A stretch of DNA of 64,000 nt. Source: a bacterium (GTDB lineage Bacteria; Patescibacteriota; UBA1384; 2-12-FULL-50-11). The position numbers and the translations under genes are program-made. This document shows, piece by piece, positions 4,912 to 58,552 of this stretch (positions within the stretch are counted from its first letter, which is position 1; every line of letters starts with the position of its first letter). The stretch lies in the NCBI GenBank assembly GCA_021463485.1, contig JAJTYJ010000001.1:1378-65377 (forward strand), written 5' to 3'. The notes below the pieces were generated by a model, which was given only the letters and a program-made list of their open reading frames with translations, did not search any database and was not told where the DNA came from.

Positions 4912-5490
4912 CTACTCTATAGTAATTGATTGAATACTGTCACCAACTGAGATTTGTTTGACAACATCCATACCACCGGTGACTTTGCCAAAAATCGTGT
5001 AATTCTTTGGTAGCGAGTCGTTGTCGGCGAGCATAATGAAAAACTGACTGCTATTGGTATTAGGCCCGCGATTAGCCATAGCCAGCACACCTTCTTTGTA
5101 CCCGTTTTTATACGACGGCGTGTCCTCGTTTAGCTCATCTTCGAACTCTGATCCGTAAATTGAGGCTCCGCCGGTACCGTTACCGTCCGGATCGCCGCCT
5201 TGAATAACAAAACCTGGCTCAACCCGGTGAAACGTTAAACCGTCGTAAAAGCCGTTCTTAGCAAGCGTTGCAAAGTTTGTTACCGTTTTCGGCGCGTCTT
5301 GTGGATAAAGCTCCAACCGGATATCACCTTTTTTTGTTTTAATAGTCGCCTTGGTTGCAGAAACTTGTTCAAATGTTGTTGGATCACCTGTCATTTTTTT
5401 AACGCCTCCTTGTTTATCTTCTGACTGCGGAATTAGTAAAAATACGCCAACCACCGCTATAACACCGATAATGATATGTGTAATTTTCAT
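4912..5490 (-). CDS. Cyclophilin-type peptidyl-prolyl cis-trans isomerase with N-terminal membrane anchor
   Basis: N-terminal TM 'IIIGVIAVVGVFLLIP' followed by cyclophilin motifs 'FHRVEPGFVIQGGDP', 'GGASIYGSEFEDE' and 'FFIM'. Confidence 0.85.
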   Translation of the reverse strand: MKITHIIIGVIAVVGVFLLIPQSEDKQGGVKKMTGDPTTFEQVSATKATIKTKKGDIRLELYPQDAPKTVTNFATLAKNGFYDGLTFHRVEPGFVIQGGDPDGNGTGGASIYGSEFEDELNEDTPSYKNGYKEGVLAMANRGPNTNSSQFFIMLADNDSLPKNYTIFGKVTGGMDVVKQISVGDSIQSITIE

Positions 5491-5508
5491 TGTGCGCCCG
5501 TTCAGGAT
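5491..5508. repeat. 18-nt direct copy of the tRNA-Val 3' end (TGTGCGCCCGTTCAGGAT)
   Basis: It is identical to 5558..5575, which covers the tRNA-Val 3' acceptor strand and T-arm. It lies immediately upstream of the cyclophilin start codon, 48 bp from the tRNA. Confidence 0.6.
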
Positions 5509-5559
5509 AGTCGACTAACGTCGCCTTCCTTCACTCTAATACTTTTTATGTTTGTCATG

Positions 5560-5631
5560 TGCGCCCGTTCAGGATCGAACTGAAGACCCCTTCCACGTCA
5601 AGGAAGTGCTCTACCGCTGAGCTACGGGCGC
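5560..5631 (-). tRNA. tRNA-Val (anticodon GAC)
   Basis: The minus-strand sequence 'GCGCCCGTAGCTCAGCGGTAGAGCACTTCCTTGACGTGGAAGGGGTCTTCAGTTCGATCCTGAACGGGCGCA' folds by hand as a cloverleaf: 7-bp acceptor, GCTC/GAGC D-stem, anticodon loop TTGACGT, T-loop TTCGATC. CCA is not encoded. Confidence 0.8.
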
Positions 5632-6426: not shown

Positions 6427-6500
6427 GGTCCCGTCGTCTAGTGGCCTAGGACGCCTGGTTTTCATCCAGGAAATCACGGGTTCGACTCCCGTCGGGACCG
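6427..6500 (+). tRNA. tRNA-Glu (anticodon UUC)
   Basis: 'GGTCCCGTCGTCTAGTGGCCTAGGACGCCTGGTTTTCATCCAGGAAATCACGGGTTCGACTCCCGTCGGGACCG' gives a full cloverleaf by hand with anticodon loop TTTTCAT. CCA is not encoded. Confidence 0.85.
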
Positions 6501-6530
6501 CAAACAGAATACACACCCGTGTTGCCTTGC

Positions 6531-6561
6531 AATCACGGAAACGACTCCCATTGGGACAGCA
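6531..6561 (+). pseudogene. Degenerate direct copy of the 3' third of tRNA-Glu
   Basis: 'AATCACGGAAACGACTCCCATTGGGACAGCA' versus the tRNA 3' portion 'AATCACGGGTTCGACTCCCGTCGGGACCGCA' (about 6 mismatches in 31 nt). It lies 30 nt downstream of the tRNA. Confidence 0.5.
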
Positions 6562-6600: not shown

Positions 6601-7007
6601 TCGGAAGTCTGTTGATCGATTCGCAGGTCTAACTCGTGTTCGCAGTTAGCAGCTGCCTCATCACAAGCTTCGATAGCGAGTCGAGTTGGCAGGGACAAAT
6701 TACGAGTTTCGATTATGCGCTGTTTTTCACGAATAGCCTGTGCCTTAAGCTCTCCGAGAATTGCCTTTACACCCTCGTCCTGCTCAAACTGAATTTTAAG
6801 GTCGATCTCAATGAGCCGCTCATCGAGGATCTTGATTCGAGCGTCATCTCTGAGATCAATCTCCGCCGCGCGCTCTGAGTATTGCTTGTTCTTGTGCCTA
6901 TTCAGAATCCATAACACACCAGCAATTGCCGTAGAGGTAATTCCGATCCCCCACAACATCTTGGTATCGAGTTTCTTTCGCTCTATCTCACGCTTACTCA
7001 AGTACAA
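6582..7007 (-). CDS. Hypothetical membrane-anchored coiled-coil protein
   Basis: The 141-aa ORF has one TM ('MLWGIGITSTAIAGVLWIL') and a charged helical remainder. Confidence 0.45.
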   Translation of the reverse strand: MYLSKREIERKKLDTKMLWGIGITSTAIAGVLWILNRHKNKQYSERAAEIDLRDDARIKILDERLIEIDLKIQFEQDEGVKAILGELKAQAIREKQRIIETRNLSLPTRLAIEACDEAAANCEHELDLRIDQQTSEKPECG

Positions 7008-37265: not shown

Positions 37266-37817
37266 GTGTCTGCAAAACTGGAAATACTGGAGTTCCTTAA
37301 TAACTCACTGCAATCGCCACCACTCGACATTCTATGTTCATACAGTGAAGAGGTCTTTGATCGTGCTACTACCTCTCAAGACCTAATCAAAGGAGATATT
37401 GAGGGGCAGGTTAGGCTGTGGTGTCGACGTGGATCATTCTTCAAAAACCTTGCCCAATCAGATCTCGAGAATCTTCGAGATCAAAAGGCGGGAGCTGCTC
37501 GATCAATCTTATACTCACGACTTTGTGTTACCTTGTTGGGCCACCGACCAAATTCTATAGAGATGGCTAACCTTTTCGCAGGAGATAAGCCGATCGCTAA
37601 AAGAATCCTGGCGAGTACCAACCCTGAAGCCATAAAGATTCGTGAACACCTGGCTCCCGCTATGATCACTATGGAATTGTTTGGACTCGCTGAAGTACTT
37701 GCACTTCGAAACATAAACTATGAAAACGAAGTAGAGGTTGCTCAGGCAACTGAACGATTTATGCATCGTGCTGATCGCCTAACCGAACTGCTTGTCTTCA
37801 GACGCAGCGTGCTTTGA
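37266..37817 (+). CDS. Hypothetical protein
   Basis: 183-aa ORF convergent with alaS; no recognisable motifs. Confidence 0.35.
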   Translation: MSAKLEILEFLNNSLQSPPLDILCSYSEEVFDRATTSQDLIKGDIEGQVRLWCRRGSFFKNLAQSDLENLRDQKAGAARSILYSRLCVTLLGHRPNSIEMANLFAGDKPIAKRILASTNPEAIKIREHLAPAMITMELFGLAEVLALRNINYENEVEVAQATERFMHRADRLTELLVFRRSVL

Positions 37818-39483
37818 TCCGTCGTACACCTTGGGAGGAAGCTTCCTCTTTCAAGATTTCAAACCGGCCTAACTCGCCGGTTTTTTTTACGTGCGGTCCA
37901 CCGCAGAGTTCCTTAGAAAAGTCACCGATCGTGTACACGGAGACCATTTCGTCGTATTTGGTGCCGAACTCGGCTTGGGCACCGCTGGCAAGCGCTTCGA
38001 CTTTACTCATTTCTTCTTGAACAACAGGCAAATCTTCTGCAATCTTTGCGTTCACAATTGTCTCAACCTCTTTTAACTCTTCATCGGTTAACTTGCGGTC
38101 AAAATTAAAATCAATTCGCAACCGCTCACTCGTTACGTTCGAGCCTTTCTGAACAACATCGTTTCCGAGAACTTTCTGTAAGGCAGCAAGTAACAGATGG
38201 TGCGCCGTGTGGTGTTTGATTGTTTGGGGTTCGTGATCGGCTAAGCCACCTTTAAACTGTCCGGCCAGACCCGCTCGAGAAACTTCTTGGTGTTGGGTGA
38301 AGAGCTTGGCAAAATAACTTGTGTCAACAGAAAGTCCTTGAGTCACAAGGTACTCAATCACTAGTTCTTTTGGAAAACCGAACGACTCGTACATATAGAA
38401 CGCCAGTTCGGTAATAGATTTCTCACGAGTAATTATTTCTGAGTCAGTGTGAACATCCAGCCATTTCTCAAGATACAAACGGGCTCGCGTGAGATTCTTC
38501 TCAAATTGTTCGTGCTCTTTTTTATAAACTATCAGGACTTCTTCTAAGTCTAATAGCTGATACTGTTCGGAGTAAAATGTTCTAACTTCAGCAAGAATTG
38601 TTGCTGGAATTTGAGGATTGCTTTCAAGAAAGCTAACTTTACGAATTAACCTCCTTAAGATATAGCCTCGGCCTTTATTACTTGGCTCGATTCCAGCACT
38701 AATTAAAAATAATGCTGCTCGCAAGTGATCAACGATAATTCGACTTTCGTATTCTCTTTCTGGATCAACCAACTTGACCCAATTAGCATATGGCTCGATC
38801 TGCCATACCGACGTTTTTCCTTGCAATGTTGCCGCCAGGCGTTCTAGGCCCGAGCCAGTATCTAGTCCTTGACTATTTAATTCAACAAAACTCCCCTCTC
38901 GATCTTTGTAGTACTGATTAAACACCAGGTTCCAAACTTCAACGCCGTCGATATAAATCTCGCTCGTCGGTCCGCACGGACCTTCGTCGCCAGTCGGTCC
39001 CCAAAAGTTATCTTCCCGTCCGGCTTTTTCAACGCGAACGCCGAGTTCTGCCCAAACTTTTTCCGAATCAGTATCCGCCGGCGTTGTGTCGTCGCCCCTG
39101 AACACTGTTGCGTGTACGCGTTCTTTTTCAACACCCAGCTCCAAATTCACAAACTGCCAAGCTTCTTTAATTGCTCGCTCTTTCATTTCGTAGGATTCTG
39201 CCTCGCCGAATCTAAAGTTGCCAAGCATCTCGAAGCTAGTTAAGTGCGTATCATCACCGACTTCGGCTATATCAGATGTTCGAATTACTGGCTGCACTGT
39301 CGCTACCGCTGATGCTGGCGCCTCAGAGGGATGCGAGTAAAAATCTTTAAACTGTTGCATACCAGCAGTAGTAAATAAGACGCTCGGATCGTTTTCTGGT
39401 ACAAGCGAAGATCCGGGCAATACTTTGTAGCCCCTACTCTGAAAAAACTGTAAAAATTTTTCTCGAACTGTCGCTAATTCCAT
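37798..39483 (-). CDS. alaS: Alanyl-tRNA synthetase, short form lacking the C-terminal (C-Ala) domain
   Basis: Catalytic core 'FFQSRGYKVLPGSSLVPENDPSVLFTTAGMQQFK', and editing-domain zinc motifs 'HHTAHHLL' and 'CGGPHV'. It is only 561 aa, whereas canonical AlaRS is about 870. Confidence 0.85.
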   Translation of the reverse strand: MELATVREKFLQFFQSRGYKVLPGSSLVPENDPSVLFTTAGMQQFKDFYSHPSEAPASAVATVQPVIRTSDIAEVGDDTHLTSFEMLGNFRFGEAESYEMKERAIKEAWQFVNLELGVEKERVHATVFRGDDTTPADTDSEKVWAELGVRVEKAGREDNFWGPTGDEGPCGPTSEIYIDGVEVWNLVFNQYYKDREGSFVELNSQGLDTGSGLERLAATLQGKTSVWQIEPYANWVKLVDPEREYESRIIVDHLRAALFLISAGIEPSNKGRGYILRRLIRKVSFLESNPQIPATILAEVRTFYSEQYQLLDLEEVLIVYKKEHEQFEKNLTRARLYLEKWLDVHTDSEIITREKSITELAFYMYESFGFPKELVIEYLVTQGLSVDTSYFAKLFTQHQEVSRAGLAGQFKGGLADHEPQTIKHHTAHHLLLAALQKVLGNDVVQKGSNVTSERLRIDFNFDRKLTDEELKEVETIVNAKIAEDLPVVQEEMSKVEALASGAQAEFGTKYDEMVSVYTIGDFSKELCGGPHVKKTGELGRFEILKEEASSQGVRRIKARCV

Positions 39484-40224: not shown

Positions 40225-40250
40225 TTCGTCTAGTGTACCAGAGATAGTTA

Positions 40251-40328
40251 GTGCGCGAGAGAGGAATGTCGCTACGCTCCTTCTCCTTCACTTCGTTCAG
40301 TCGCAGTGAACCTTAGGTTTAAGTCGCT
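40251..40328. repeat. Repeat module 1: a 15-nt copy of the tRNA-Leu(GAG) 3' end plus a shared ~63-nt element
   Basis: 'GTGCGCGAGAGAGGA' is identical to the tRNA-Leu(GAG) 3' end. The next 47 nt, 'ATGTCGCTACGCTCCTTCTCCTTCACTTCGTTCAGTCGCAGTGAACC', are identical to module 2, followed by a similar GGTTtAAGtCGCT tail. Confidence 0.6.
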
Positions 40329-40334
40329 CTGTAG

Positions 40335-40418
40335 TGCGCGAGAGAGGACTTGAACCTCCACGGGGTTGCCCCCACAGCCACCTCAAGGCTGCGTGTATAC
40401 CAATTTCACCACTCGCGC
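40335..40418 (-). tRNA. tRNA-Leu (anticodon GAG), type II with long variable arm
   Basis: Minus strand 'GCGCGAGTGGTGAAATTGGTATACACGCAGCCTTGAGGTGGCTGTGGGGGCAACCCCGTGGAGGTTCAAGTCCTCTCTCGCGCA'; anticodon loop TTGAGGT; CCA is not encoded. Confidence 0.85.
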
Positions 40419-40430
40419 ATAATGTTAACA

Positions 40431-40508
40431 GTGCCGGAAAGAGGAATGTCGCTACGCTCCTTCTCCTTCACTTCGTTCAGTCGCAGTGAACCATGGGTTC
40501 AAGCCGCT
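40431..40508. repeat. Repeat module 2: a 16-nt near-copy of the tRNA-Leu(CAG) 3' end plus the shared element
   Basis: 'GTGCCGGAAAGAGGA' versus the tRNA 3' end 'GTGCCGGAGAGAGGA' (one mismatch), then the same 47-nt sequence as module 1 and a GGTTcAAGcCGCT tail. Confidence 0.6.
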
Positions 40509-40554
40509 ACCGAAAGAGCGAAACGCCGCCACCTCTGGTGGCAACATCTCGCTG

Positions 40555-40639
40555 TGCCGGAGAGAGGACTTGAACCTCCACGAGCCGTAAGGCTCACTGG
40601 CACCTGAAGCCAGCGTGTCTACCGTTTCACCACCCCGGC
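40555..40639 (-). tRNA. tRNA-Leu (anticodon CAG), type II
   Basis: Minus strand 'GCCGGGGTGGTGAAACGGTAGACACGCTGGCTTCAGGTGCCAGTGAGCCTTACGGCTCGTGGAGGTTCAAGTCCTCTCTCCGGCA'; anticodon loop TTCAGGT. Confidence 0.85.
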
Positions 40640-40682
40640 AAATTACACCTGATAATTTTACCAAAGAAGTAGCTATTTTTCA

Positions 40683-57496: not shown

Positions 57497-58552
57497 ATGA
57501 GCGATGCTGTTGAGCTCGTCAAAAACCCTGTCGAATCTGCAAAAGAAGCTGGTTTGCGCTATTTTACCGACTCAAAACTAACAATCTCCCGCCTTAAACA
57601 CGGCGAAGGCTTTAGGTACGTAGATAAAGACGAGCAACCAATTACTGATAAAGAAACGATCGTTAGGATTAAGTCGCTAGTGCTACCGCCTGGCTGGACA
57701 AACGTTCGGATCTCACCAGTAGCTAACAGCCATCTTCAAGCAATTGGCGTAGATGAAAAGGGCCGCAAACAATACCGCTACCACCCCGATTGGCTTAAAT
57801 TTCGCGATCAAACCAAATACGACAAGCTAATCGATTTCGGCAAAGCCCTACCAAAAATTCGTACTCAGGTCTCAGAAGATCTCGCCAAGCACGGCCTGCC
57901 GCGCGAGAAAGTGTTGGCCACAATCGTTAAATTACTCGAAAAAACGATGATTCGAATCGGTAACGAGCAGTACGCTAGAGAGAATCAGTCGTACGGTTTA
58001 ACGACGCTCCAAAATCGCCACGTGGATGTCGGCACTCAAAAAGTAACGATCAATTTCAAGGGCAAAAGTGGGCAATTCCACACCATCGAACTCGAAGATC
58101 GCCGGCTTGCTCGTCTAATTGGCCGGCTTCAGGACTTGCCCGGCCAGGATTTATTCCAGTTTATCGACGAAGACGACAATCTCCACTCAATCGACTCATC
58201 AGACGTTAACGAATATATCCAAGATGCTGCCAACGACTTATTCACCGCCAAGGATTTTCGGACTTGGCGCGGTACCGTGTTAGCCGCCTGGTTTCTAGCA
58301 GACGCTGAGCGCGCCAGAAGCGAGCGAGAAAACAAGCGAATTGTTTCGCAGATTGTTAAAGAAGTCGCCAAAGAGCTCGGTAACACCCCAACAGTCTGTC
58401 GCAAGTGTTACATTCACCCAACCGTTATCGAAACGTTCTTGAGCGACTCTGGTCTAACAATTAAAGAAATTAACACCATTGAAATCGACACGGTCGATTT
58501 ACTGCCGGAAGAAAAAATTGTTTTAGAGTTCTTGAAACAAAATACGGCCTAG
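57497..58552 (+). CDS. Bacterial type IB DNA topoisomerase (poxvirus-like TopIB)
   Basis: 351 aa; 'GFRYVDKDEQPI', 'YRYHPDWLKFRDQTKYDKL', 'IRIGNEQYARENQSYGLTTL', 'FKGKSGQ' and C-terminal 'CRKCYIHP' matching the TopIB catalytic R-K-R-H...Y arrangement. Confidence 0.8.
   Translation: MSDAVELVKNPVESAKEAGLRYFTDSKLTISRLKHGEGFRYVDKDEQPITDKETIVRIKSLVLPPGWTNVRISPVANSHLQAIGVDEKGRKQYRYHPDWLKFRDQTKYDKLIDFGKALPKIRTQVSEDLAKHGLPREKVLATIVKLLEKTMIRIGNEQYARENQSYGLTTLQNRHVDVGTQKVTINFKGKSGQFHTIELEDRRLARLIGRLQDLPGQDLFQFIDEDDNLHSIDSSDVNEYIQDAANDLFTAKDFRTWRGTVLAAWFLADAERARSERENKRIVSQIVKEVAKELGNTPTVCRKCYIHPTVIETFLSDSGLTIKEINTIEIDTVDLLPEEKIVLEFLKQNTA

What the first reader, a model, noticed from the sequence alone, without database searches (positions are those of the whole stretch)
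40225..40682. Two tRNA-Leu genes each followed by a copy of their own 3' end plus a shared 60-80-nt module (att-like scars)
Downstream of tRNA-Leu(GAG) lies module 1, which starts with GTGCGCGAGAGAGGA, an exact copy of that tRNA's 3' end. Downstream of tRNA-Leu(CAG) lies module 2, which starts with GTGCCGGAAAGAGGA, copying that tRNA's 3' end with one mismatch. Both then continue with the same 47 nt and a similar tail. A tRNA followed at 80-110 bp by a direct repeat of its 3' end is the attL/attR signature of integrase-mediated insertion into tRNA genes. The shared inner sequence would be the common arm of one element type that used both tRNA-Leu genes and was later almost completely deleted. 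Alternatively the module could be a small structured RNA or a miniature mobile element that targets tRNA-Leu.
Basis: seen in the sequence. Interest (0 to 1): 0.55.

Follow-up and report, generated by a model that had tools for sequence, protein, structure and literature searches.

The report
Miniature insertion modules at tRNA gene ends
Behind both tRNA-Leu genes, and also tRNA-Val, of this Berkelbacteria-like (CPR) genome sits a short, hairpin-rich, non-coding insert bounded by a copy of the tRNA's last ~15 bases; close relatives lack it precisely, so it is a strain-variable, probably mobile mini-element rather than a dead scar, though what moves it is unknown.

Summary
Each tRNA-Leu is followed by an insert of 68 or 108 nt and then a copy of its own last 15 nt (15/15 and 14/15). 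The two inserts share 47 identical nt.

The integrase-scar reading is only partly right.
- A relative with 93-94% nt identity in the flanking genes has both tRNAs and neither insert, cut exactly at the repeat. These are therefore insertion/deletion alleles.
- A genome whose flanking genes are only ~70% identical carries 89%-identical inserts, each ending in its own tRNA's 3' end.
- Related modules follow tRNA-Val here, and tRNA-Cys and tRNA-Gly in relatives. Mirror-image versions sit at tRNA 5' ends.

All 3' modules share three features. The duplicated target starts at TCC at or near the end of the TψC loop. A GA-flanked hairpin ends 1-3 nt before that junction, and its closing pair covaries. 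Most also carry an inverted copy of the local T-arm.

No integrase, transposase, reverse transcriptase or Cas1 was found in the window. No module lay away from a tRNA in any scan, and there was no Rfam match.

Best reading: a non-autonomous mini-element that targets tRNA gene ends. Its mobilising enzyme is unknown.

The parts
40554..40639 (-). tRNA-Leu(CAG), intact, CCA not encoded
   Evidence: ARAGORN; Rfam tRNA, 50.4 bits
40655..40683 (-). sigma-70-like promoter (GTGAAA-17-TAAAAT, with TG) upstream of tRNA-Leu(CAG); likely drives both tRNA-Leu genes and module 2
   Evidence: Consensus scan. Co-transcription is inferred from the 12-nt tRNA-tRNA spacer in the empty allele L001.
40446..40553 (-). 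Module 2 insert (108 nt). It contains a 17-bp hairpin with 4 G.U pairs (about 40517-40553), an antisense T-loop piece S1 GGCTTGAACC (40496-40505), a sense T-arm piece S2 GGTTCA (40487-40492), the core, and a GA-flanked mini-hairpin GGAGCGTAGCGAC (40448-40460).
   Evidence: (z = -5.1). Absent from L001/L003.
40431..40445 (-). D2: displaced or duplicated copy of the last 15 nt of tRNA-Leu(CAG) (14/15)
40419..40430 (-). Native 12-nt tRNA-tRNA spacer (TGTTAACATTAT), identical to the spacer in the empty allele
40334..40418 (-). tRNA-Leu(GAG), intact
40266..40333 (-). Module 1 insert (68 nt): S1 GACTTAAACC (40316-40325), S2 GGTTCA (40307-40312), the core, and the GA-flanked mini-hairpin (40268-40280)
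   Evidence: Absent from L001/L003.
40251..40265 (-). D1: exact copy of the last 15 nt of tRNA-Leu(GAG); the match extends 2 nt further (TA)
5559..5631 (-). tRNA-Val(GAC), host of a third module of the same family
5492..5558 (-). Val module: 51-nt insert (5508-5558) whose tail AGTGAAGGAAGGCGACGTTAGTCGACTA resembles the Leu core, followed by an exact 16-nt copy of the tRNA-Val 3' end (5492-5507). The PPIase ATG follows 1 nt later.
   Evidence: alignment score reached by 18 of 2000 shuffles. Empty site in L088; also filled in L085-L087.
6502..6560 (+). tRNA-Glu trailer: an antisense T-stem piece CCCGTG (6516-6521) and a degenerate sense copy of the T-arm through the 3' end (6531-6560, about 21/27). 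It has no core and looks like a decaying member.
   Evidence: The copy has diverged differently in L085.

Best explanation
The two Leu modules belong to a family of miniature (13-148 nt), non-coding, hairpin-rich insertion elements that live at the ends of tRNA genes in Berkelbacteria-like CPR bacteria.

Each insertion lies at a fixed point in or just after the TψC loop, immediately 5' of a TCC. It is accompanied by a second copy of the target from that point to the tRNA's end (11-16 nt), sometimes with 1-9 nt of flank. One intact tRNA therefore survives on the inner side, and a 3' fragment (D) sits on the outer side.

The element is polar. Its outer end is constant: a GA-flanked hairpin ending 1-3 nt from the junction. 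Its inner part varies or is truncated. Most copies also carry an inverted copy of the local T-arm that pairs with the adjacent sense copy.

The elements encode nothing and must be moved in trans by an enzyme not present in the window. Their terminal hairpin, together with the target-complementary segment, is the likely recognition structure.

Shown:
- Insertion/deletion polymorphism with precise empty sites.
- A shared core at four different tRNA species.
- The boundaries of the duplicated target.
- Higher conservation than the flanking genes.
- Covarying hairpins.
- No detectable mobility gene in the window.

Inferred:
- That the spread is active mobility rather than loss alone.
- The nature of the enzyme. 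A polar copy-in process (target-primed) or a tRNA-specific site-specific recombinase are the two leading options.
- That module 2 is transcribed as part of the tRNA operon.
For: Empty versus filled alleles:
- L001/L003 are 93-94% nt identical to the window in SLT (the lytic transglycosylase gene next to tRNA-Leu(GAG)) and SBP, the two genes flanking the tRNA-Leu pair. They have both tRNA-Leu genes and neither module, with breakpoints exactly at the repeat.
- L005 versus L004, which encode the identical SLT protein, differ in the same way.
- L042, L043, L017 and L015 are empty.
- L088 is the empty site for tRNA-Val.

Patchy distribution with high conservation:
- L028 has flanking genes only about 70% identical, yet carries both modules at 89% identity.
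- Its D2 is TCCTCTCCCAGGCAC, the 3' end of its own, different tRNA-Leu(CAG).

One family across several tRNAs:
- The Leu core and the Cys core align at 75% identity; no shuffle of 2000 reached that score.
- The Val tail is weaker (18 of 2000 shuffles).
- Gly modules share the terminal hairpin.

Constant geometry:
- Every duplicated fragment D in a homologous module contains TCC at or within 2 nt of its start.
- A GA-[hairpin]-GA unit ends 1-3 nt before D in 11 of the 13 modules tested (not L013-Leu or the Val module). The closing pair is C:G, U:G, G:C or U:A in different lineages.
- The hp1 stems covary: CTACC/GGTAG, CTGCC/GGCAG and TTGCC/GGCAA.

Other points:
- The length series is anchored at the outer end: 13, 51, 68 and 96-148 nt.
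- The duplication is 11-24 nt, with a fixed left edge and a variable right edge.
- Mirror-image 5' modules have the same terminal unit on the other strand.
- Folding z-scores are -5.35 (L014), -5.55 (Gly) and -5.1 (window module 2 with its tRNA).
Against: - No autonomous copy or mobilising enzyme was found anywhere. The Pfam scan of the window's ORFs and the DNA scans of GTDB genomes, JGI metagenomes and IMG/VR returned only tRNA-adjacent mini copies or chance hits.
- The long-type Leu(GAG) modules in L004, L013, L014 and L018 could equally be one ancient, vertically inherited locus lost repeatedly by deletion between the 15-nt repeats. Mobility is therefore not proven.
- The tailor-made inverted T-arm copies are not explained by any simple target-duplication mechanism.
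- Folding z-scores of the short window modules alone are weak (-0.6 to -1.5).
- D is not better paired than expected from composition.
- The sample is small, about 14 modules from about 8 lineages.
Confidence: 0.5

Rival explanations
1. Host-useful structured RNA. The module is a cis-acting part of the tRNA primary transcript: a 3' trailer or inter-tRNA spacer. It may act as a terminator, insulator or processing element, with hairpins that sequester tRNA-like fragments or guide RNase processing. It may also define the 5' end of the downstream, nearly leaderless mRNA. Presence or absence would then reflect gain and loss of an accessory RNA.
For: - Module 2 lies between two tRNAs that are only 12 nt apart in the empty allele, downstream of the only promoter-like site. 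It must therefore be transcribed.
- G.U-containing pairs exist only on the tRNA-sense strand: the 17-bp hairpin with 4 G.U pairs in module 2, and the U:G closing pairs.
- Hairpins covary and folding z-scores are strong (-5.35, -5.55).
- Conservation exceeds that of the flanking genes.
- ORFs start 0-1 nt after a tRNA end or after D (PPIase, LAGLIDADG gene).
Against: - Close relatives lack the modules entirely.
- D decays in L013 and L014, and the Glu copy decays.
- The same core sits behind four different tRNAs, and in both orientations at 5' ends. That points to insertion rather than a locus-specific function.
- In L004, L013, L014, L018 and L028 an intrinsic terminator or terminator-like hairpin lies between the tRNA and the module (scan-confirmed only in L013).
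- No Rfam family matches.
- D is no more paired than in shuffled controls.
Confidence: 0.2
2. By-products of replication template switching or break repair at tRNA genes, with no dedicated enzyme. The order sense, antisense, sense (tRNA T-arm, inverted copy, second sense copy) is what two template switches at the T-arm or D-arm palindromes would give. Alleles would then spread between strains by transformation and homologous recombination, possibly helped by the LAGLIDADG endonuclease found at this locus in some relatives.
For: - The sense-antisense-sense architecture occurs at both 3' and 5' ends of tRNA genes.
- No mobility enzyme was found.
- The length of the duplication varies.
- LAGLIDADG_3 ORFs sit between the two tRNA-Leu genes in L007 and L015. 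In L007 a foreign tRNA-Leu(GAG) allele is followed by the resident allele's displaced 3' end.
- Type IV pilin-like genes in the window are compatible with DNA uptake.
Against: - It does not explain a homologous non-tRNA core shared by Leu, Cys and Val modules in different genomes.
- It does not explain the constant GA-hairpin 1-3 nt from the junction, or the constant left boundary.
- Random repair scars should not be 89% conserved between genomes that are 70% identical.
Confidence: 0.13
3. One reading: inert attL/attR remnants of large tyrosine-integrase islands or prophages that used the tRNA genes and were later almost wholly deleted. The shared sequence would be the common arm of attP.
For: - The direct repeat runs from the TψC loop to the tRNA end or slightly beyond, as at classical tRNA att sites (background in bioRxiv 10.1101/2020.12.28.424599).
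- L004 and L018 show inverted hexamers around a 7-nt spacer at the junction (GCGAGA AATCCTC TCTCGC).
- The tRNA-Glu copy behaves like a decaying scar.
Against: - No integrase was found in the window or at any module-bearing tRNA in the related loci.
- No junction was found far from its tRNA in any scan.
- All copies are 148 nt or shorter.
- Conservation and covariation are incompatible with neutral remnants.
Confidence: 0.12
4. Casposase/Cas1-type insertion. A Cas1-like integrase would use the TψC-loop palindrome as a leader and a roughly 15-bp yardstick, duplicating the last 15 bp of the tRNA gene, as casposons do at tRNA-Pro and tRNA-Leu.
For: - The modal duplication is 15 nt and starts at the TψC loop.
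- The A. boonei casposon makes a 15-bp target duplication and needs the adjacent TψC-loop segment (PMC5137440).
- M. mazei casposons insert into tRNA-Leu with a 14-bp duplication (PMC4779613).
- In L004 the two outer ends look like inverted repeats, TCGAS-hairpin-SGAGA.
Against: - The duplication ranges from 11 to 24 nt.
- The single 3' modules have no terminal inverted repeats.
- No cas1 or polB gene is in the window.
- In the 2016 survey, all bacterial casposons lay in intergenic regions (PMC4779613).
Confidence: 0.03

Closest known systems
tRNA-targeting integrative elements with tyrosine integrases (classical att sites in tRNA 3' halves; e.g. tycheposons, bioRxiv 10.1101/2020.12.28.424599)
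   Same: The insertion is bounded by a direct repeat of the tRNA's 3' segment, starting in the TψC loop and reaching the gene's end. The tRNA is left intact. Strains are polymorphic, with empty sites.
   Different: The inserts are 13-148 nt with no gene. No integrase was seen anywhere. A conserved hairpin core and target-derived inverted copies are present, and mirror versions sit at tRNA 5' ends.
Casposons (Cas1-solo transposons; PMC5137440, PMC4779613)
   Same: They target the 3' end of tRNA genes, depend on the TψC-loop region and duplicate about 14-15 bp of target.
   Different: The duplication length is not fixed (11-24 nt). There are no clear terminal inverted repeats, no cas1 or polB gene, and the size is 100-fold smaller.
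MITEs and PATEs (miniature derivatives of IS elements, including IS200/IS605, whose hairpin ends recognise the flanking target by base pairing; from my own knowledge)
   Same: They are small, non-coding, hairpin-ended and present in several copies. A segment next to the terminal hairpin is complementary to the flanking target.
   Different: IS200/IS605 elements make no target duplication and use 4-5-nt guides. Here 7-16 nt are complementary and 11-24 nt are duplicated. No parent IS was found.
SINE/LINE-type target-primed retroposition (eukaryotic; from my own knowledge)
   Same: One edge of the target duplication is fixed and the other variable. The copy series is anchored at one end and truncated at the other. 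There is a structured terminal hairpin, and the elements are non-autonomous and linked to tRNA genes.
   Different: No such system is known in bacteria. No reverse transcriptase was seen in the window. Target-derived inverted copies are not a SINE feature.
Free-standing homing endonuclease cassettes in tRNA gene clusters (e.g. T4 SegB, PMC2330249)
   Same: A LAGLIDADG gene occupies the spacer between the two tRNA-Leu genes in relatives (L007, L015). In L007 it arrived together with a foreign tRNA-Leu allele.
   Different: The window has no endonuclease gene. Homing by homologous repair leaves no duplicated target or hairpin core.

Membership tests
Integrase att remnant (tyrosine-recombinase island in a tRNA gene) | Direct repeat of the tRNA 3' segment on both sides of the insert | tested here: met
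   15/15, 14/15 and 16/16 nt repeats
Integrase att remnant (tyrosine-recombinase island in a tRNA gene) | An integrase gene inside or next to at least some copies | tested here: not met
   No Phage_integrase or any recombinase in the window's ORFs. None at module-bearing tRNAs in the related loci. No tRNA-distant junction in any scan.
Integrase att remnant (tyrosine-recombinase island in a tRNA gene) | Neutral decay of the remnant | tested here: not met
   89% identity between genomes whose flanks are about 70% identical; covarying hairpins. Only the Glu copy decays.
Casposon | Fixed 14-15-bp target site duplication | tested here: not met
   Duplications of 11, 13, 15, 17, 20 and 24 nt
Casposon | Terminal inverted repeats plus cas1 and polB genes | tested here: not met
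   No cas1 or polB in the window. TIR-like ends appear only when the L004 5' and 3' modules are read as one cassette.
MITE | Short, non-coding, multi-copy | tested here: met
   Three homologous copies in 64 kb and further copies in relatives
MITE | Terminal inverted repeats and a target duplication of fixed length | tested here: not met
   Single modules have one hairpin end only, and the duplication length varies
IS200/IS605-derived PATE | Subterminal hairpins at both ends and insertion without target duplication | tested here: not met
   Hairpin units are present, but every insertion carries a duplicated target
Target-primed (SINE-like) retroposon | Variable target duplication with one fixed edge; copies truncated from one end | tested here: met
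   The left edge is always at TCC, and the right edge lies 0-9 nt past the tRNA end. Length series of 13 to 148 nt sharing the outer end.
Target-primed (SINE-like) retroposon | A reverse transcriptase in the same genome | not testable with these tools
   None in the 64-kb window. The rest of the genome is not available.
Any described RNA family (Rfam 15) | Covariance-model match | tested here: not met
   Only tRNAs pass; module regions give nothing, or chance hits far below threshold

The most novel reading that the evidence does not exclude
The modules are a bacterial, tRNA-gene-specific, non-autonomous element that finds its target by nucleic-acid complementarity. Each copy carries inverted T-arm or 5'-end segments of 7-16 nt next to its terminal hairpin, and these would act as guides. 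It would be copied in by a polar, target-primed process, making it a SINE-like or guide-directed insertion system in CPR bacteria with no described counterpart.
Probability: 0.15. Interest if true: 0.85.

Novelty: new variant of a known kind. Interest (0 to 1): 0.6.

Why it matters
CPR/Patescibacteria have tiny genomes that are thought to be poor in mobile DNA. Here 3 of 7 tRNA genes in one 64-kb window carry homologous strain-variable mini-inserts, and a fourth carries a decaying copy of its own 3' end.

If the modules are mobile, they define a new way of colonising essential genes without killing them: insert in the TψC or D loop and duplicate the gene's end. Their target-complementary segments could reveal a programmable targeting principle.

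If they are instead functional RNAs, they are an undescribed class of tRNA-operon elements. In either case they explain assembly breaks and partial-tRNA annotations at these loci, and they provide strain-level markers for Berkelbacteria populations.

Tried and rejected
- Rfam, with permissive thresholds on the window region and on five related loci: only tRNAs passed.
- GTDB genome scan with a 24-nt core pattern: one hit, the already known L007-type Cys module.
- JGI metagenome scan for the core-D junction: 24 loci, of which 21 were chance hits in GC-rich coding DNA. The 3 real hits were all tRNA-linked.
- Three IMG/VR scans: all hits were chance matches inside ORFs with no adjacent tRNA-linked module, so no viral or plasmid attP was found.
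- Pfam scan of 38 window ORFs outside the central syntenic block, which was annotated only through relatives' gene tables: no integrase, transposase, reverse transcriptase, Cas1 or HUH protein. A type IB topoisomerase (57497-58552) was considered as a possible strand-transferase, but nothing links it to the modules.
- Test of whether module sequences sequester D: pairing probability of D was no higher than with shuffled inserts. The idea was dropped as unsupported.
- The GA-hairpin motif as a stand-alone search key: too common by chance (38 in the window versus about 18 in shuffles). Only its fixed position next to D is informative.
- MAFFT alignment of short and long modules was unreliable, so helices were compared by hand-anchored scripts and no covariance model was built.
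- Ideas considered and rejected or left without any supporting evidence: box C/D-like or K-turn motif, T-box, group I or BHB intron, integron attC, IS110 bridge RNA, CAST homing crRNA and DGR.
- Promoter scans gave no support for antisense transcription of the modules.
Full report
**Observation.** All features are on the - strand. The order is: tRNA-Leu(CAG) (40554-40639), a 108-nt insert (40446-40553), a 14/15 copy of that tRNA's last 15 nt (40431-40445), a 12-nt spacer, tRNA-Leu(GAG) (40334-40418), a 68-nt insert (40266-40333), and an exact copy of its last 15 nt (40251-40265). The copy covers TψC-loop nt 60, the T-stem 3' strand, the acceptor 3' strand, A73 and C74. The 47-nt core is identical in both inserts and occurs nowhere else in the window, nor in 100 shuffles.

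**The phenomenon is wider than reported.**
- tRNA-Val (5559-5631) is followed by a 51-nt insert and then an exact 16-nt copy of its 3' end (5492-5507). The insert's tail, AGTGAAGGAAGGCGACGTTAGTCGACTA, resembles the Leu core (the alignment score was reached by 18 of 2000 shuffles).
- tRNA-Glu (6427-6501) is followed by an antisense T-stem piece and a degenerate copy of its T-arm through its 3' end (6531-6560).
- tRNA-Cys, -Gly and -Lys in the window have nothing comparable.

**Organism and orthologous loci.** Homologues of the flanking lytic transglycosylase (SLT) are named Candidatus Berkelbacteria or Patescibacteria by their sources. The gene order SBP_bac_5, tRNA-Leu(CAG), tRNA-Leu(GAG), SLT, short AlaRS is conserved.

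The decisive comparison is with L001/L003. They are 93-94% nt identical to the window in SLT and SBP. They have both tRNA-Leu genes with identical sequence but no modules...GGCAC|TGTTAACATTAT|tRNA...GCGCAC|TAATTATCTCT. The difference is exactly insert plus one repeat.

The same holds for L004 (filled) and L005 (empty), which encode the identical SLT protein.

At tRNA-Leu(GAG), filled alleles are the window, L028, L004, L013, L014, L018 and L007 (a 13-nt mini version). Empty alleles are L001-L003, L005, L015/L016, L017, L042 and L043.

For tRNA-Val, L085-L087 (PPIase 93% aa) are filled. L088 (84%) is empty, with the PPIase ATG directly abutting the tRNA.

**Conservation.** L028's flanking genes are only about 70% nt identical to the window. 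Its two Leu modules are nevertheless 89% identical to the window's. Its distal repeat behind tRNA-Leu(CAG), TCCTCTCCCAGGCAC, is the 3' end of its own, different tRNA. Within each genome the two modules are more alike (93% and 97%) than orthologous modules are between genomes. The closer relative L001 has none. Patchy distribution, high similarity across divergent hosts and locally matching repeats argue against inert scars.

**Anatomy**. Reading in the tRNA sense, a full module has these parts:
1. Often an intrinsic terminator or a long hairpin. In window module 2 this is a 17-bp stem with four G.U pairs, which is possible only on this strand.
2. S1, an antisense copy of the local T-loop/T-stem: GACTTGAACC for Leu, GACCGGATTAGAAACC for Gly, ATGGGAT for Cys.
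3. A triloop or a variable hairpin, whose stem covaries: CTACC/GGTAG, CTGCC/GGCAG, TTGCC/GGCAA.
4. S2, a sense copy of the T-arm's 5' part (GGTTCA[A], GGTTCGA, ATCCCAT).
5. A core, CTGCGAS ... GAAGTGAAG ...
6. A terminal unit N-GA-[G-stem-loop-stem-C]-GA-N' that ends 1-3 nt before D.
7. D itself, which contains TCC at or within 2 nt of its start.

The terminal unit is found in 11 of the 13 modules tested, covering Leu, Cys and Gly; L013-Leu and the Val module lack it in this form. Its closing pair N:N' is C:G, U:G, G:C or U:A in different lineages, and its loops are GTA, GAA, GTTA, GCAA, GTCA and GTAT. The loose motif is common by chance, so the evidence lies in its fixed position and covariation.

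The Leu and Cys cores are clearly homologous: no shuffle of 2000 reached their alignment score. S3 and S5 (GCGAG) copy nt 3-7 of tRNA-Leu(GAG). They persist in the Cys and Leu(CAG) modules, where they cannot pair with D. This suggests the family arose at tRNA-Leu(GAG) and spread.

Predicted folds are strong for L014 (z = -5.35), Gly (-5.55) and L013 (-2.95), and weak for the short window modules. No Rfam family matches.

**Boundaries of the duplicated target.** The left edge is constant, immediately 5' of TCC. For Leu, Val and Gly this is TψC-loop nt 59/60; for Cys it is nt 63/64. The right edge lies at C74 or 1-9 nt beyond it, for a total of 11-24 nt. In Val the proximal copy continues into a copy of the downstream ORF's first codons. 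Only insertions whose duplication reaches past the gene's end leave an intact tRNA, which explains the right edge by survivorship. Modules form a length series that shares the outer end: 13 nt in L007, 51 nt in Val, 67-68 nt in Cys and short Leu, and 96-148 nt in the long forms.

**Mirror-image 5' modules.** Three examples were found:
- L004 tRNA-Leu(GAG): TAACAATAA-GCGCGAGTGGTGAAAT | TCTC[TGGC TAAA GCCG]TCGA - ATTTCACCAACGCAC - TAACATTAT - tRNA.
- L004 tRNA-Gly, with the analogous structure; it is absent from L005.
- L088 tRNA-Val, with a similar structure.

Read on the other strand, these have the same order as the 3' modules: target, inverted copy, TCGAC[hairpin]GAGA, then the outer target copy. 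The terminal unit resembles the 3' unit TCGAG[hairpin]CGAGAAA. L026, from another lineage with encoded CCA, has a module facing a tRNA-Leu across a terminator. The family can therefore sit at either end of a tRNA gene and in either orientation.

**Search for an autonomous partner.** Pfam found no integrase, transposase, reverse transcriptase, Cas1 or HUH protein in the 38 window ORFs scanned outside the central syntenic block, which was annotated only through relatives' gene tables. One GTDB scan, one metagenome scan and three viral scans returned only tRNA-adjacent mini copies or chance matches.

The only enzyme repeatedly seen at this locus is a LAGLIDADG_3 protein that fills the tRNA-tRNA spacer in L007 and L015/L016. 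In L007 it is followed by a foreign tRNA-Leu(GAG) allele (acceptor GCCCAGG), then 13 nt, then the displaced 3' end of the usual allele. So tRNA replacement does occur here, but homing alone does not create the module architecture.

**Most likely explanation.** These are non-autonomous mini-elements that insert at fixed points in the TψC loop (or the D loop) of tRNA genes with duplication of the gene's end. They are polar, recognised through a terminal GA-hairpin plus target-complementary segments, and moved in trans by an unidentified enzyme (confidence 0.5).

The enzymology is open. A fixed first edge, a variable second edge and one-sided truncation point towards a target-primed copy-in process. 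Repeats confined to the tRNA 3' end point towards a tRNA-specific site-specific recombinase. The casposase model, with its 15-bp yardstick and TψC-loop leader (PMC5137440, PMC4779613), is attractive but is contradicted by the 11-24-nt range and the lack of inverted terminal repeats.

Rivals are:
- a host-useful structured trailer RNA (0.2);
- template-switch or repair by-products spread by recombination (0.13);
- casposase-type insertion (0.03).

**Verdict.** The feature is a new variant of tRNA-targeting mobile DNA in a poorly known phylum, with an unexplained target-tailoring feature. Interest 0.6.

Noticed in passing
window 5492-5631 (-): tRNA-Val(GAC) carries a module of the same family: a 51-nt insert plus an exact 16-nt copy of its 3' end. 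The cyclophilin-type PPIase ORF (4912-5490) starts 1 nt after the copy. In the empty allele (L088) the ATG directly abuts the tRNA end, which suggests tRNA-mRNA co-transcripts processed into nearly leaderless mRNAs.
   Followed up: partly
window 6502-6560 (+): The tRNA-Glu(TTC) trailer holds an antisense T-stem piece and a degenerate copy of the T-arm through the 3' end. The copy has diverged far more between the window and L085 than the surrounding DNA.
   Followed up: partly
L007 4255-4902; L015 9187-9843; L016 2744-3400: A free-standing LAGLIDADG_3 homing-endonuclease-like ORF fills the spacer between tRNA-Leu(CAG) and tRNA-Leu(GAG) in two divergent relatives. In L015 its ATG starts immediately after the tRNA. 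In L007 it is linked to a foreign tRNA-Leu(GAG) allele.
   Followed up: partly
L004 9667-9740 and about 6810-6857; L088 20-81: Mirror-image modules sit at tRNA 5' ends. Each has an outer copy of the tRNA's first 8-16 nt, a hairpin unit, an inverted copy, a spacer and then the tRNA. They are polymorphic between L004 and L005.
   Followed up: partly
window, all 7 tRNA genes: None encodes CCA. Every gene is followed by C, and in 6 of 7 cases then by A (N73-C-A).
   Followed up: no
window 57497-58552 (+): A bacterial type IB (poxvirus-like) topoisomerase gene lies next to tRNA-Lys. This is an uncommon gene, and no link to the modules was found.
   Followed up: no
window 37798-39483 (-): The alanyl-tRNA synthetase is only 561 aa (tRNA-synt_2c plus tRNA_SAD). 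This short form is conserved in all relatives.
   Followed up: no
L026 2190-2580: In another lineage, whose tRNA has encoded CCA, a module-like region with GAGAGGACTTG pieces ends in a 19-nt tRNA-Leu 3'-end sequence. That sequence faces a convergent tRNA-Leu(CAG) across a bidirectional terminator.
   Followed up: partly
L002, L006, L042, L043 (contig ends): Several metagenome contigs end inside or just beside tRNA-Leu(GAG). This fits assembly breaks caused by the repeated T-arm or by strain heterogeneity at this locus.
   Followed up: no
L088 8174-9748 (-): A large serine recombinase (Resolvase plus Recombinase domains, 524 aa) lies next to a MerR-like gene in a relative. It is not adjacent to any tRNA.
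   Followed up: no
L014 4330-4390: The distal repeat behind tRNA-Leu(GAG) is degenerate (TCCGAATTCGCGCAC) and is present twice in tandem together with the preceding CGAGAAA.
   Followed up: no
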